Source: Octopus sinensis (Eukaryota). From it: 64,000 nt of DNA. The stretch is from NCBI RefSeq assembly GCF_006345805.1, contig NC_043004.1, positions 82,584,001-82,648,000 of the forward strand, in the 5' to 3' direction. The position numbers are program-made. Each line of letters starts with the position of its first letter. The stretch's first letter is position 1. Of this stretch, positions 3,001 through 54,000 are shown piece by piece.

Positions 3001-6000
3001 ATCAGTCGGTTATGATTCCCTCAGCAGAGCACCATCATTCTGCGAATCACGAAACTATTGTAGCTGTGCTTCAGTTTTTCTAATATCTTTAATGAAACTT
3101 TTAATATTTTCTCAAGATATTTCATTCTGAACTGTTTTTAATATTTTAAAAAATTTTATCAAAGAATGTATATATATATATATATTGTGATATTTTGTGA
3201 CACCAGTACTTAACACAAGAAAGCTTTTACAAATCTTTAGATTTTAGTTTTGACAAATTTTTCTAAAAAAGTGAAACCGGTCAAGTGATTAATGATTATA
3301 AAAATTGCATTATCAAACGTTTTTTTTCATATATATATATATATATATATATATATATATATATATATTTAAGAGACATCTTATATGTAAGAGAAATCTT
3401 ATACGTCGCAGATAATAATACTAATCAATGCACATCAATTTGGAACCAACGCTTTATACAATACAAACTAAGAATAAAATATGGAGAAGAATAAAATATC
3501 GATATTGTAATTAATATACTTGCGAAAATCAAATTAACATCAGAGTAATATCACAAATAAATTCATAATAGATTGTCGCAATTCATTTCCCTATAAGCTT
3601 TATAAAGTGTTGATTGAATATAAATCATTTCAGATTAATATCTTAAGAAGCTTATCGAGTAATATTCAAGTTCACATGTATTTTAGCAACAGATTTGAAA
3701 TAATCCCTACGGACAAACAAAACGGGAGACATTATATAACAGCTTTATCCGATAGCTTTATTTCCAGTTCTTTCGCAACACACAGAGCTTTGCAACACTC
3801 TCACCTTAATATAGAGATCTTAAACAAAAACTAGAACTCTGTTTTTTAAGTCAACGTGTTTAACTCTCTATAAGGAAGTTGTGAGAAATATTTTATTACA
3901 AAAAGTATGGAACTAAAAGAAACACGATTCTATAAATTACTACAATTCTATGGGAAAATTAATATTTGTAAGATATCATTTATGAACATATCACTGAAAT
4001 CTCTCAAATGTAAAAATATCTGTATCTCTGCGTTTTACATCCTGTATCCTTTATATCTGACTACAAACCCCATTATATCTATGTATGCTATAATAGGATT
4101 GCTTCATAAATCTCATGAAAGATTTGTATTTATTTATACACTATTTTTTAAGTGTTTGCTTTCACTCTACTGTCTGATCAAATTCTTCCGAAAATCTAAA
4201 GACAAAGAAATACTCGAAGCATTTACCGAACTTAAAATTGAAAAAGACGATGAAAAATTCTATAACAGTAACTTATTATTTTCTTTTATATCAATTTCTA
4301 TAGTTGTATTGCTGCCACTAATTTTACTCGCTCTGATGAACATCGTTATCATGAACTTTATTTGGAATTACTCAACAAAATATTTAAGCAGCATCGAAGC
4401 TCTTGAATTTTTTATTTCATTAATATGCACTTTATTTGATAGTATATTATTTACGTGCATACTCTATGATTGGTATATCAATATGGCAATTGGAACTGCA
4501 CTGCAGTATGAGTTTAATAAATTAGCGAGAGAGGCTGAGAAATACGTGAAAGAAAAGCATTCAAATTCTTCGTATTTCTTTAAGAAATATAAAGAGATTC
4601 CAGAAATATGTAACTCACATGATACTCTGAGTAAATCACTGAATTTAGTAAATGAATCATTTGAACTGACTTCGGGACTTATCGTACTCGTTAGTATTAC
4701 TGCATGTTGTGTTGCTACGTATATAATCATAAATATTTCATACAAAATTATACTCACTTATTACGTTTCAACTATGTTTGTGGCTTCTTTGAACATGATT
4801 CTTCTGATCACAACGATGCAGATTGGAGTTCGTTTAAATAAATCGGTAAGTTACAATATAACATATAATCGTACTTTTTCTTCAATCCTATCTTACATAT
4901 TACATCATAAAAGACGTCTTATATGTTATCCCAATTTCCTCGGTGTTTTAAATTTATGTGATATCTTATCTTCTGATATCCATCCAGCATCTTTTGATTC
5001 CCAAATGTGAAGGTGAGATAAAGGTTAGAAAATGGAGGAAAATCTTCCATCATTACCACTAGGTCTATTATTTCTACCACCAACTAATTCTATTCTCATT
5101 CCATCATTCATTCACACTTTCTCTCTCTTTGACTTTGCAACAGTTCTTTGTGAAAGGTGTTATGGACGCCACACAAGTTCACGTTTATCGAAGAAATGAT
5201 GAGTGATCTCAACAACAGAAATTTTTGAAGAACGTCATTTCATAATTAATTATGCACCACTGATGTTTTTGCATTTCCTAGAAGTTTTGGATTCTTTCTA
5301 TGTGATCGATAAAGCCGTTTTTGTTCTGCTTTTCTTCCGTCAACCTGTACATAACTGTATCTTCCATTTTTTGTTGTTTTTGTACTGCTTAAAGGTACGT
5401 TTCTTTCCTCCCTAGCATACTGTTTAAACCATGTTTGTGTTCACCCAGTCAACAACCTTATCATGACTGGTAATTTAAAATCTTCGGTTACATATTTGTG
5501 TGAATAAATTGGAATAGAAAAAAGTCTATCTTTATTTCTTCTTTTGCTAGTATCTCAAATTTAGGTTAAATCAGTGTTTCTCTAAGGCGAGGCATATGGA
5601 ACGGCCGGACAAGTTGTTTTGAGAAAATTTGGTTTAAATACTTGATAACTTATGCTTGTCCATTGTACAAGGGGCGTTTTCCACGTACATGTATATACAT
5701 GTATATATATATATATATATATATATATATATATATATATATATATATATATATATATATATAGTAAGTAAAGATCAAGTACTTCTCCATTCCAAGTACA
5801 CACGGAAATATCTACATAACTACGTTAGTCTTCATCTTGGTAAAAACGGATAAACCTACATCTGTGATTCATCCACTGATATATTTTCACCTATTGGATT
5901 GGATTAATGATGTTGATCAAATGGATAATTACAGATATACGGTCTATACTGTACTCATACACATACATATATATAACAGTTAATACACACACACACACAT

Positions 6001-51000: not shown

Positions 51001-54000
51001 TGTATGTATGTTATGTATGCATGTATGTATGTATGTATGTATGTATGTATGTATGTATTTGTATGTATTTGTGTGTCTGTCTTTGTCACCCATACCAGAG
51101 CTTAACAACTGATCGTATTATTGTATATATTAATGCACTATTTCTTCTGTGTTTGATATCAATCTACTGTCGGATCAAATTCTTCCGGAATTCTAAAGAC
51201 AAAGAAATACTCGAAGCATTTACCGAACTTAAAATTGAAGAAGACGATGAATAATTCTATAACAATAGCTTAATATTTTCTTTTATATCACTTTCTATAG
51301 TGACATTACTGCCGCCTATTATAATCGATATTATGTACTACGTTCCCTCGTTTCTCATGAAGTCTGTTTCGAATTCCACAGCAAATTATTTAAACAGCAG
51401 CAAAACTATTGAGTTAATTATTTCGTTAAATTTCATTGTATTTGATTTTACATCACATACGTACATACTGTTTGATTGGTATATCAATATGGCAATTGGA
51501 ACTGCACTGCAGTATGAGTCTAATAAAGTAGCGAGCGAGGCTGAGAGATACGTAAAAGAAAAGCAATCAAATACTTTGTAATTCTCTAAGAACTATAAAG
51601 AGATTCCAGAAATATGTAACTCACATGATACTCTGAGTAAAATACTGAATTTAGTAAATGAATCAGATCAGTTTTATTCAGGATTGATCGTACTCATTAG
51701 TATTACTGGATGTTGTGTTACTACTTATATAATTGTAAATTCTTCATTTCAAAATACATTGCTTGAACTCACTTCCATTATATATGTGGCTTCGTTCAAC
51801 AAGATTCTTTTAATAACGATGTGGATTGGAGTTCGTTTAAATAAATCGGTACGTTATATAATAATATATAATCGTACTTCTTCTTCAATTCTATTTTACA
51901 TATTACATCATAAAAGATATCGAATATACTATCCCAATTTCATTGGTATTTTAAATGTATGTGATATCTTATCTTCCGATATCCGTCCTGCATCTTTTGA
52001 TTTCCAAATGTGAACATTAGATGGCGGTGAAATAATGGACGAAAATCTTACATCTCTAACACCGTGACAATTATCTCTACCGTCATGCAATTTTTCTCTC
52101 ATTCCAAGTCCAAGCAAAAGCCCTAATAATACGAAGATTTGAGAAGAGAAACAACTCTTACAAGCAAAATAAGCTGTTCACATCCAATGCCAAAAAATTC
52201 TACAGAGAACTAGGGAAGGAGAAAGTAACCGTTAAAGACCACCCCTCCCATTGAAGAAGTTCAAAACTTTTGGAAAAGGTTTTGGAGTGACAAGAAGAGG
52301 TACAACATAAATGCAGACTGGATTATACAAACTGAAGGATCCTACCAAAATTTACAACAACAAGCATGGGAAGACATCACAATAGCAGACCTAAGAAAGG
52401 CACTCACGAAGGCCCATAATTGGAAATCCCCCGGTAAAGATAGGGTGCCGAATTTCTGGCTCGCATCGCTCCCATGCGCACACGGTAAGCTAGATCAGCT
52501 GCTCAATGGAATTATGAGAGACCCAAAGAAAACACCTGAATGGTTAGCAAGTGGTATTACTTACCTACTCCCAAAGAATAACGAAACCAACTTTCCAAAA
52601 AACTATCGGTCTACAACCTGTCTATCCACCACGTGTAAAATCCTAACATCTATCCTGGCGGAGAAAACATATGCATTCATGGAGAAGAACGATATTTTCC
52701 CCATTGAACAAAAAGAGTGCCGCCGAAGCTCATACGGATGCAAAGATCAACTGCTAATTAATCGTATGATCGTTGAGAACTGTCACAACAAGCTCAGAAA
52801 TCTCAGCTCCGCATGGATTGACTATAAAAAGGCCTTCGACAGTATACCGCATCAATGGATCTTGAGATCGCTGGACATCTTCAAAATTTCCCCTGCGATT
52901 TCAAGCTTCCTGAAGCACAATATGTCGTTGTGGAATACGAATCTCCAATTATACCACTCTAATGGAGTACTTGCCTCAGAAAATATAAACATCAACTGTG
53001 GAATTTTTCAAGGTGACTCACTTTCACCTTTAATATTCTGCATAGCCCTAATACCCCTTACAAGTGAATTAAACAGAATAGGGTATGGGTATAAATTTGC
53101 CAATAAAAAATAAGCCATCTATTTTATATGGATGACTTAAAACTCTATGGTAAAGACGATAATGAACTTGAAGGCCTATTATGCACTGTGAAAGCATTCA
53201 GCGATGACATCGGGATGGAGTTTGGGCTTGAGAAGTGTGCCAAGGCCATTTTCCAGAAAGGGAAAGTGAAGACCACAAATTCAGTCGTGTTAGATGTTGA
53301 CACAGTCATAAGAGAGCTTGGGCAAGAACAAACATACAAATATTTAGGGATAAATGAAGGCTCTGGTATTCAGCATGCAAGCATGAAAGAGAAGACCAGG
53401 AAGGAATATTATAGGAGAGTTCGTGCAGTCCTGAAATCTGAACTAAATGCACGTAACAAGGTGTTAGCTAAAAATTCCTTAGCAGTTCCAGTTGTTACTT
53501 ATAGTTACAATGTGTTGAACTGGAATATGAGTGAAGTAAAGAATATAGATAGGAAAATAAGCAAGCTGTTGAGTTGTAATAGGATGCACCACCCAAAGGC
53601 ATACGTAGATCGCCTTTACCTTCCCAGAGTCCAAGAAGATCGAAGCCTGGTCCAATTTGAACTAGCTTACAAAACAACCACAATTGGACTGGCCAAATAT
53701 CTTGAAATAACGAATGACTGGATGCTAAAGGTCGTGGAAAATCACGAGAGACGAAAGAGGCTTCATTCTATCATAAAGGAAAGCAAAAGATTTGCTATTG
53801 ATCACGTGCAGGATACCCAAACTGAACAACCCGAGGGAAGTACGGCAACTATTGTTGCAAAGAAGGTGAAAATAATGGCAACAAAAAGCGCACGAGCAAT
53901 TGGCTGATAGGTGGGAGGAGAAACCTCTGCACGGCAAGTATGTGGCCCGCAGCAAACAAGCTGATGTTGACCAGAAGCAAACTCATCAGTGGCTACTGTG

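What the first reader, a model, noticed from the sequence alone, without database searches (positions are those of the whole stretch)
4843..51854. Variable first exons with conserved donors but no TM7 exon: possible shared downstream constant exon
Seen: all 7 copies that reach the end of TM6 stop at the same phase-0 donor (4846, 7919, 29416, 34037, 39152(-), 47853, 51849). Copy 2 starts only ~2.1 kb after copy 1's donor, and I found no convincing TYxxxxxQF-type exon between copies. Established: Drosophila Gr28b and Gr39a (and by analogy clustered protocadherins and UGT1A) splice alternative large 5' exons to common 3' exons; TM7 lines the GR pore. Inference: this array may be one locus in which promoter choice selects a variable TM1-6 ligand-binding module joined to a common pore exon beyond position 64000. 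Seven of eight copies share the + orientation this model needs.
Basis: inference. Interest (0 to 1): 0.85.

Follow-up and report, generated by a model that had tools for sequence, protein, structure and literature searches.

The report
Octopus taste-receptor-like variable exon array
Eight tandem copies of an exon encoding the first six membrane helices of an octopus gustatory-receptor-like channel, seven of them broken, each end at a splice site but lack the pore-forming seventh helix, which related octopus genes take from one shared exon.

Summary
The window has exactly eight copies of a ~313-codon exon. All 7 that reach the end of TM6 are followed at once by GTAAGT (6) or GTACGT (1). Three searches found no TM7 exon anywhere in the window.

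The family is gustatory-receptor-like. Paralogues pass Pfam 7tm_7, and a paralogue model matches only insect OR/Orco/GR structures.

The shared-exon idea has direct precedent. In Octopus sinensis database entries, isoforms of one gene have TM1-6 parts 44-53% identical joined to a 100% identical TM7 tail. That junction aligns exactly with the window's donors.

Three limits apply:
- The constant exon for this array is not in the window and could not be looked for.
- Only copy 1 is intact; 7 of 8 copies carry stops, frameshifts or truncation.
- The copies diverge about neutrally, with median dN/dS 0.81 and coding no better conserved than flanks.

Verdict: a largely decayed array of GRL variable first exons of the insect Gr39a/Gr28b type.

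The parts
3907..4851 (+). Copy c1. Intact variable exon, ATG 3907 to codon 313 at 4845 (N-terminus plus TM1-TM6; protein P0001), with donor GTAAGT at 4846-4851.
   Evidence: aligns to P0022 residues 2-318, ending at its exon junction
6986..7924 (+). Copy c2. Full-length variable exon with one in-frame TGA (c1 codon 156, at 7454-7456) and two in-frame indels. Donor GTAAGT at 7919.
28458..29421 (+). Copy c3. TGA at c1 codon 95 and a 7-nt frameshifting insertion at about 29182. Donor GTAAGT at 29416. Its upstream flank is split by a reverse-transcriptase element at 26589-28292.
33312..34042 (+). Copy c4. The 5' part is lost or degraded (reliable homology starts at c1 nt ~218). It has at least 7 frameshifting indels and a TAG. 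Donor GTAAGT at 34037.
36059..36816 (+). Copy c5. Closest to c1 (95.8% nt identity) and open for 252 codons, then cut off by a dispersed repeat. TM5-6 and the donor are missing.
39147..40102 (-). Copy c6, inverted. ATG at 40102. It has one 1-nt deletion at c1 codon 101, shared with c4 and c7. Donor GTAAGT reads from 39152 downwards. It lies tail-to-tail with c5.
47133..47858 (+). Copy c7. Sister of c4 within a larger duplicated block. The 5' part is degraded, with at least 6 frameshifting indels. Donor GTAAGT at 47853.
50699..51854 (+). Copy c8. It has a 2-nt deletion at codon 4, a 204-nt insertion with (TATG)n at codon 73, two TAA stops and further frameshifts. Donor GTACGT at 51849.
2080..8894 (+). 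Two head-to-tail duplication units of about 3.07 kb (2301-5203 matches 5373-8276 at 84.5%). Each holds one variable exon plus about 1.6 kb upstream and 0.35-1 kb downstream flank, and no TM7 exon.

Best explanation
The window holds a tandem, retrotransposon-riddled array of eight 'variable first exon' cassettes of an octopod gustatory-receptor-like (GRL, 7TM ion channel) gene family.

Each cassette carries its own start codon and encodes the N-terminus and TM1-TM6, the ligand-facing bulk of the subunit. Each stops at a consensus 5' splice site, at the position of the family's phase-0 intron just before TM7.

A complete subunit needs the end of TM6, TM7a and the pore-lining TM7b. In this family these come from a short constant exon of 57 codons, or 71 with an upstream extension. 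Several variable exons share that exon by alternative splicing. By analogy with insect Gr39a/Gr28b loci and clustered protocadherins, the choice is presumably made by alternative promoters (inferred).

The array grew by duplicating about 3 kb units that never contained a TM7 exon. The constant exon, if this array still has one in cis, lies downstream of 64000 on the + strand.

The array is mostly decayed. Only c1 is intact, and the copies have drifted about neutrally.

Shown here: exon anatomy, donors, absence of TM7 in the window, family identity, and the shared-tail isoforms in paralogues. Inferred: that this array is or was served by a shared exon, and promoter choice.
For: Family identity
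- P0001 has relatives at E down to 1.5e-65 (16 proteins at E<=1e-3).
- P0012 and P0020 score 27.4 and 30.3 bits on Pfam 7tm_7, against a cut-off of 26.6.
- The ESM Atlas puts P0001 next to 7tm_7 clusters at 0.96.
- An AlphaFold model of paralogue P0021 (pLDDT 73.8, pTM 0.72) matches insect OR, Orco and GR chains in all 20 rows listed up to rank 23. The best is Orco 6c70 with TM 0.61. Rank 24 drops to probability 0.38.

Junction
- P0022 residues 2-318 align to 3901-4845 and P0023 residues 2-319 to 6980-7918. Both alignments end on the last residue before their constant tails.
- Database relatives without TM7 read V-S right after this point in 8 of 8 cases.

Shared tail in paralogues
- O. sinensis LOC118764608 X1/X2/X3 have variable parts 44-53% identical and a tail identical at 71 of 71 residues.
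- LOC118764607 X2 against X3/X4 has variable parts 46% identical and a tail identical at 57 of 57 residues.
- The tail carries TYILVVIQT.

No private TM7 exon in the window.

Orientation: 7 of 8 copies are on +.

Literature
- A phase-0 intron just before the TM7 exon and the TYhhhhhQF motif are GR hallmarks (PMC9998090, passages).
- Tandem long first exons spliced to shared C-terminal exons are described for insect ORs and GRs (PMC6175461, passages).
Against: - The constant exon was not seen, and nothing beyond the window could be read.
- 7 of 8 exons are disabled. c4, c6 and c7 share the same 1-nt deletion plus an adjacent substitution, so broken exons were themselves copied or converted.
- dN/dS is 0.53-1.67 over 28 pairs, with median 0.81 and 7 of 28 pairs at or above 1. 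For c1-c5 it is 1.38.
- Coding identity is about the same as flank identity. For c1-c2 it is 0.906 upstream, 0.888 coding and 0.873 downstream.
- c1's intact frame is weak evidence of function. 5.9% of random substitutions (167 of 2817) make a stop, and c1 differs from c5 by only about 4%.
- None of the closest database relatives of this subfamily (P0003, P0008, P0015, P0002) has a TM7. The TM7-bearing paralogues are only 35-39% identical to c1.
- c6 is inverted.
- No GRL sequence was found after the last copy up to the window's end, a stretch that includes retrotransposon ORFs on both strands.
- Pfam does not recognise P0001 itself.
Confidence: 0.62

Rival explanations
1. Detached dead array. 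A gene fragment holding only the TM1-6 exon and its donor was amplified by segmental duplication, away from any constant exon or after losing it. No copy, c1 included, makes a receptor. c1 is simply not yet hit by a disabling mutation.
For: - 7 of 8 copies are disabled.
- c4, c6 and c7 share a frameshift.
- Median dN/dS is 0.81, with c1-c5 at 1.38.
- Flanks are as conserved as coding sequence.
- Larger blocks including repeats are duplicated (32990-34479 matches 46784-48300 at 91.7%).
- There are many retrotransposon insertions.
- No TM7-bearing database protein was found for this subfamily.
Against: - In the same family, arrays of TM1-6 exons without private TM7 exons are the normal working layout, so lack of TM7 is no sign of death.
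- 7 of 8 copies keep the orientation needed.
- c1 is open for 313 codons and c5 for 252, and c2 and c6 have only one lesion each.
- All 7 donors keep GT, and 6 of 7 keep the full GTAAGT.
Confidence: 0.27
2. Each copy has, or had, its own terminal TM7 exon nearby. It is too diverged to detect, or was destroyed by the retrotransposon insertions between copies.
For: - A weak motif (FV.[ST]QST[TA]L..) recurs about 590 nt after the donors in several units (5434, 24212, 41712 on -). It is the best profile hit, at E=1.5.
- TM7 motifs can be poorly conserved outside insects (PMC9998090, passage).
Against: - E=1.5 is what chance gives.
- The motif is followed by stops at the same place in all units and has no match to the first 30 residues of the constant exon.
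- Known constant tails of this family are 91-100% identical among loci whose variable exons are only 43-54% identical. A private tail should therefore be easy to see.
- c1 and c2 are contiguous with no insertion between them and still have none.
Confidence: 0.05
3. The donor is read through. The product is a six-helix protein with a 54-residue tail ending ...DSQM, with no TM7.
For: The frame after the donor stays open for 54 codons to the same stop in 4 of 7 copies (c1, c3, c6, c8).
Against: - 6.0% of 54-codon windows in the unit flanks (746 of 12410) are also open.
- Tail dN/dS is 0.39-1.27, no different from the rest.
- c2, c4 and c7 stop after 25-29 codons.
- Read-through tails of the 8 database relatives are 6-95 residues and unrelated after the first two.
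- A channel of this fold needs TM7b to line the pore (PMC9998090, passage).
Confidence: 0.05

Closest known systems
Octopus sinensis LOC118764607 and LOC118764608, and O. bimaculoides LOC106880719 (uncharacterized proteins; names as given by the source database)
   Same: - Same protein family (P0001 against P0012 E=1.4e-24; tblastn of P0021 against the window 4.7e-59).
- The same exon boundary.
- Different TM1-6 parts joined to an identical TM7 tail within one gene.
   Different: - Only 35-39% identical to c1.
- Their constant exons are known, while this array's is not.
- I saw the proteins only, not their gene structures or transcript support.
Insect GR and OR loci with alternative long first exons (Drosophila Gr28b, Gr39a and Gr23a are recalled; Blattella Gr60a-m from PMC6175461, passages)
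   Same: - Tandem long first exons, each encoding most of the receptor.
- They are spliced into shared short exons for the conserved C-terminus and TM7.
- Some isoform exons are pseudogenic.
- Same superfamily and the same phase-0 intron before TM7.
   Different: - Mollusc, not arthropod.
- The shared part here seems to be one exon of 57 or 71 codons rather than the usual three short exons.
- The pseudogene share here is 7 of 8, against 11.4% for the cockroach GRs.
- Splicing is not shown for this array.
Clustered protocadherins and UGT1A (recalled)
   Same: Variable first exons, each with its own start and donor and lacking a private 3' end, joined to constant exons. Pseudo-exons sit within the array.
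   Different: Unrelated proteins. Promoter choice is documented there and is only inferred here.
Molluscan and other non-arthropod GRLs (Robertson 2015 and Saina 2015, as cited in PMC7746228, passages)
   Same: GR-like seven-helix proteins outside arthropods, with a TM7 motif and conserved 3' introns.
   Different: I found no description of cephalopod GRLs or of alternative first exons in non-arthropod GRLs. I could not read the original 2015 papers or any supplements.

Membership tests
GR/GRL superfamily (Pfam 7tm_7, 7TM ion channels) | Sequence match to the family profile at the curated cut-off | tested here: inconclusive
   P0001 (the window's exon) has no 7tm_7 hit at E<=10. Homologues P0012 (27.4 bits) and P0020 (30.3 bits) pass the 26.6-bit cut-off, and P0001 is homologous to P0012 at E=1.4e-24. 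Full-length P0021 also has no Pfam hit at 1e-3.
GR/GRL superfamily (Pfam 7tm_7, 7TM ion channels) | Seven helices with long TM4-6 and a split TM7a/TM7b; fold like solved OR/GR structures | tested here: inconclusive
   The window's exon encodes six helices only. The single-sequence model is poor (pLDDT 53.6) and was not searched. The paralogue P0021 model has TM1-6 at pLDDT 70-90, plus helices 336-351 and 369-386 in the constant tail at pLDDT<50. Its PDB matches listed up to rank 23 (20 rows) are all insect OR, Orco or GR chains.
GR/GRL superfamily (Pfam 7tm_7, 7TM ion channels) | TM7 motif TYhhhhhQF | tested here: not met
   No such exon is in the window. Paralogues carry TYILVVIQT, which matches 3 of the 4 fixed positions. 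The feature belongs to an exon that this window lacks, so this bears on completeness, not on homology.
GR/GRL superfamily (Pfam 7tm_7, 7TM ion channels) | [quoted passage not shown] | tested here: met
   A donor follows a complete codon in c1. The position is homologous to the variable/constant junction of P0022 and P0023. In LOC118764607 the constant tail starts with the same residue after two different preceding exons, which fits phase 0. Hallmark as stated in PMC9998090.
Alternative-first-exon receptor locus (Gr39a/Gr28b type) | Several tandem long first exons in one orientation, each with its own ATG and a donor at the same phase | tested here: met
   There are eight cassettes, 7 on +. An ATG is aligned in c1, c2, c3, c5, c6 and c8. 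A donor is present in all 7 of 7 that reach the end.
Alternative-first-exon receptor locus (Gr39a/Gr28b type) | No private 3' exon between cassettes | tested here: met
Alternative-first-exon receptor locus (Gr39a/Gr28b type) | A shared constant exon downstream on the same strand | not testable with these tools
   It lies outside the 64-kb window. No eukaryotic genome collection was available.
Alternative-first-exon receptor locus (Gr39a/Gr28b type) | Transcripts that join different first exons to the same 3' exon | not testable with these tools
   There are no transcript data for this array. Paralogous loci show it at the level of database isoform proteins.
Alternative-first-exon receptor locus (Gr39a/Gr28b type) | Several first exons with intact reading frames | tested here: not met
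   1 of 8 is intact (c1). c5 is open but truncated. c2 and c6 have one lesion each, and c3, c4, c7 and c8 have several.

The most novel reading that the evidence does not exclude
The eight cassettes are the 5' variable region of one very long, still-expressed octopus GRL gene. c1 would have a first intron of more than 59 kb. Promoter choice would pick a TM1-6 module that is spliced to a single constant TM7 pore exon.

Together with the paralogous loci, this would mean cephalopods build a GR-like repertoire the way insects build Gr39a/Gr28b and vertebrates build clustered protocadherins. That could be an old protostome use of the conserved phase-0 intron before TM7, or a convergent one. It would also point to a chemoreceptor-type family in octopus that the searched literature does not describe.
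Probability: 0.45. Interest if true: 0.6.

Novelty: new member of a known kind. Interest (0 to 1): 0.42.

Why it matters
The function of GR-like channels outside arthropods is largely open, and the octopus chemosensation passages I read deal with the nicotinic-type chemotactile receptors. Five literature searches found no description of cephalopod GRLs.

The family seen here shows that octopuses have GRL loci built from exchangeable TM1-6 exons and a fixed pore exon, the layout known from insects.

There is a practical lesson for annotation. Of the 12 database models aligned at this junction that lack the TM7 tail, 10 run through the donor, 8 of them in frame as V-S. GRL counts in cephalopod genomes are therefore likely wrong.

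This particular array is mostly pseudogenic, so its own biological weight is modest. It does document rapid birth and death of such exons.

Tried and rejected
- Pfam on P0001 gave no family.
- The word-index protein search gave a single hit. That hit, an O. vulgaris model (P0002), is a chimera of transposon-like sequence and pieces of two adjacent cassettes.
- A single-sequence structure of P0001 was too poor to use (pLDDT 53.6).
- Three-frame reading of all spacers after the donors showed conserved open pieces such as ..INNAPLMFLDFPEVLFSFLG.., which at first looked TM7-like. I dropped it because it does not match the authentic tail and is truncated in c1, the only intact copy.
- I judged the recurring FV.SQSTTL motif to be chance (E=1.5).
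- The TYhhhhhQ pattern gave 4 sites. Two are out of frame inside cassettes (4271, 47460), one is in the (TATG)n insertion of c8 (50911), and one lies in the stretch around 60546 between two minus-strand retrotransposon ORFs.
- I tested c1's intact frame as evidence of selection and found it weak.
- Paper supplements were closed. GRL lists in the supplements of PMC7746228 and PMC9998090 might include cephalopods.
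Full report
**What is in the sequence**

The window has no N and is AT-rich, about 28-31% GC in the parts that hold the copies.

| Copy | Coordinates | Strand |
|---|---|---|
| c1 | 3907-4845 | + |
| c2 | 6986-7918 | + |
| c3 | 28458-29415 | + |
| c4 | ~33312-34036 | + |
| c5 | 36059-36816 | + |
| c6 | 40102-39153 | - |
| c7 | ~47133-47852 | + |
| c8 | 50699-51848 | + |

c1 starts with ATG and runs 313 codons. By eye and in the models, the product has six long hydrophobic helices. 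c5 has no donor because it is cut off at codon 252 by a dispersed repeat.

**State of the copies**

- c1 is intact.
- c2 has one in-frame TGA.
- c3 has a TGA and a 7-nt insertion.
- c6 has one 1-nt deletion.
- c5 is open but truncated.
- c4 and c7 have lost or degraded their 5' part. Each carries at least six frameshifting indels in the reliably aligned part.
- c8 has a 2-nt deletion at codon 4, a 204-nt insertion holding a (TATG)n run, two stops and more frameshifts.
- c4, c6 and c7 share the same 1-nt deletion and an adjacent C-to-G change. A broken exon was therefore copied or converted onward.

**How the copies evolved**

The copies sit in duplication units of about 3.07 kb (2301-5203 matches 5373-8276 at 84.5%) and in larger duplicated blocks (32990-34479 matches 46784-48300 at 91.7%).

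Identity is about the same in 800 nt upstream, in the exon, and in 350 nt downstream. For c1-c2 it is 0.906/0.888/0.873, and for c2-c6 it is 0.896/0.941/0.945.

Pairwise dN/dS over 28 pairs is 0.53-1.67, with median 0.81 and 7 of 28 pairs at or above 1. For c1-c5 it is 1.38. I see no purifying selection within the array.

It follows that the donors' conservation inside the window is explained by recent common descent. c1's open frame is weak evidence of function, because 167 of 2817 possible single substitutions make a stop and c1 is about 4% from c5.

**What family it is**

Pfam does not recognise P0001. The ESM Atlas places it next to 7tm_7 gustatory-receptor clusters (0.96; that family set accounts for 19 of 30 hits).

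A full HMMER scan of 1.84 billion representatives gave 16 relatives at E<=1e-3. The named relatives come from Octopus vulgaris, O. sinensis and O. bimaculoides. The window is therefore most likely octopod.

Two relatives that include the C-terminus pass the Pfam 7tm_7 cut-off of 26.6 bits: P0012 at 27.4 and P0020 at 30.3.

A model of the full-length paralogue P0021, built with a 20-sequence alignment (A1), has pLDDT 73.8 and pTM 0.72. Its PDB matches listed up to rank 23 (20 rows) are all insect odorant receptors, Orco or gustatory receptors. The best is Orco 6c70 at TM 0.61, and the next hit drops to probability 0.38.

I file the family as GR-like. The window's exon itself does not meet the profile test, because it lacks the most conserved part.

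**The key result: what the relatives do at this position**

Seven database proteins carry a C-terminal tail with TM7 (..TYILVVIQTK[SP]L). The database labels them as isoforms of three genes.

- Within O. sinensis LOC118764608, isoforms X1, X2 and X3 have TM5-6 parts 44-53% identical and a tail identical at 71 of 71 residues.
- Within LOC118764607, X2 against X3/X4 have variable parts 46% identical and a tail identical at 57 of 57 residues.
- The tails of different loci are 91-95% identical, while their variable parts are 43-54% identical.
- An optional 14 residues (VHSIT[QR]SIHYMQFQ) precede the 57-residue core. I suspect an upstream alternative acceptor (inference).

The variable/constant junction of these proteins aligns exactly to the window's donors. 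P0022 residues 2-318 match 3901-4845, and P0023 residues 2-319 match 6980-7918.

In the P0021 model the junction (318|319) lies near the end of the TM6 helix (288-331). The tail holds two helices, 336-351 and 369-386, which fit TM7a and TM7b, though at low confidence.

The 8 database models that run past this point without a TM7 all continue with V-S, the translation of a GTAAGT-type donor. Two frameshifted models read ..GKF.. there. The donor is therefore conserved across relatives only 35-50% identical, and gene predictors commonly read through it.

Isoform models of this kind are normally built only with transcript support. That is recalled knowledge, not checked here.

**Is there a TM7 exon in the window?**

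No.

- tblastn with the tail of P0012 at very permissive settings gave a best hit of E=1.1, and that hit lies inside c3's own exon.
- Nothing appeared at 1e-3 with all seven tail-bearing proteins.
- A profile of four tails against 2581 six-frame ORF pieces gave a best E of 1.5.
- A TYhhhhhQ-type pattern gave four sites, none plausible.

Tails in this family are far better conserved than variable exons, so a private tail should have been seen. c1 and c2 are contiguous, with no insertion between them, and still have none.

**Most likely mechanism**

Each cassette is a variable first exon with its own ATG, encoding the N-terminus and TM1-6, and with a strong donor at the ancestral phase-0 intron before TM7. 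A working subunit needs the constant exon, which supplies the end of TM6, TM7a and the pore-lining TM7b. TM7b lining the pore, the phase-0 intron and the TM7 motif come from PMC9998090 (passages).

Because the duplication unit never held a TM7 exon, the array could only grow as extra first exons upstream of a shared exon, or as dead fragments. The decay favours a detached or dying array (0.27). Private diverged exons (0.05) and read-through (0.05) are unlikely.

On read-through: the 54-codon open frame after the donor in c1, c3, c6 and c8 is not unusual. 746 of 12410 windows of the same length in the unit flanks are also open, and dN/dS in the tail is 0.39-1.27.

If c1 is used, its intron is at least 59 kb and runs across seven pseudo-exons and several retrotransposons.

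**Comparison with what is known**

[quoted passage not shown] One example is Blattella Gr60a-m with 13 isoforms, some of whose exons are pseudogenic (PMC6175461, passages). Drosophila Gr28b and Gr39a, protocadherins and UGT1A are recalled analogues.

GRLs are reported in Mollusca (PMC7746228, passage).

I found no paper on cephalopod GRLs or on alternative first exons in non-arthropod GRLs. The searches were 'gustatory receptor-like'+octopus, GRL/mollusc/phase 0 intron, cephalopod/gustatory receptor/7tm_7, GRL/Lottia/Aplysia/alternative splicing and octopus+7TMIC. I read only passages of the hits. Subscription papers and supplements were not visible.

This is therefore a new member of a known kind, in a new phylum. 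It is already implicit in public isoform annotations of paralogues.

**What stayed open**

- The sequence beyond 64000 and transcript evidence.
- The gene structures of the paralogous loci.
- The source names of P0003-P0017 (one search was unavailable).
- A joined variable-plus-constant protein was deliberately not made, so exons were searched one by one.
- No stretch looked human.

Noticed in passing
window 10876-13164 (+), 18994-20472 (+), 26589-28292 (+), 52229-53113 (+), 58731-60341 (-), 60714-61877 (-): There are long ORFs with reverse-transcriptase domains (RVT_1, E from 1.7e-5 to 5.8e-28). One has an AP-type endonuclease domain (Exo_endo_phos_2, 6.5e-12). Non-LTR retrotransposons fill much of the space between cassettes and lie in the 12 kb after the last one.
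   Followed up: partly
window 939-2087 (-) and 18994-20472 (+): Both ORFs end with a ..YIG(G/Q)T.RR..DRF.EH.. stretch, which I recall as a GIY-YIG nuclease signature of Penelope-like elements. Pfam gave no hit for 939-2087. The 18-20 kb element is a GC island (55% GC) in otherwise 28-31% GC DNA.
   Followed up: no
window 13381-16203, 30295-32922, 42582-45479; inverted at 36813-37796: A repeat of about 1-3 kb occurs four times between cassettes (80-89% identity). The inverted copy is what cuts off c5 at 36816. c5 and c6 lie tail-to-tail, which suggests an inversion.
   Followed up: partly
window 30.3-34.5 kb and 42.6-48.3 kb: There is a higher-order duplication: a block of spacer repeat plus a degraded cassette (c4 or c7) occurs twice. 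The cassette-proximal part is 91.7% identical.
   Followed up: partly
window 45737-46757: A 472-bp unit is repeated 2.1 times at 93% identity. Its content was not examined.
   Followed up: no
window 4846-5010 and the same stretch after c3, c6, c8: The frame after the donor stays open for 54 codons to a shared stop (..DSQM) in 4 of 7 copies. I judged this compatible with chance plus recent descent.
   Followed up: yes
window ~5434 (+), ~24212 (+), ~41712 (-): The motif FV.[ST]QST[TA]L.. recurs in the unit flank about 590 nt after the donors. It weakly resembles part of the family's TM7 exon (best E=1.5) and has stops at the same place in all units. I judged it to be chance, though a very old exon relic is not excluded.
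   Followed up: partly
database proteins P0002-P0017 (relatives, not in the window): Public gene models of this family are mostly faulty. 8 run through the donor as V-S, 2 are frameshifted through it, and P0002 is a chimera of transposon-like sequence and two adjacent cassettes.
   Followed up: partly
window 2568-2701, 16116-16214, 21876-21988, 24464-24625, 41955-42085, 56695-56772 and others: Many (AT)n, (TATG)n, (AAT)n and (TTA)n microsatellites are present, some at homologous places in the units.
   Followed up: no
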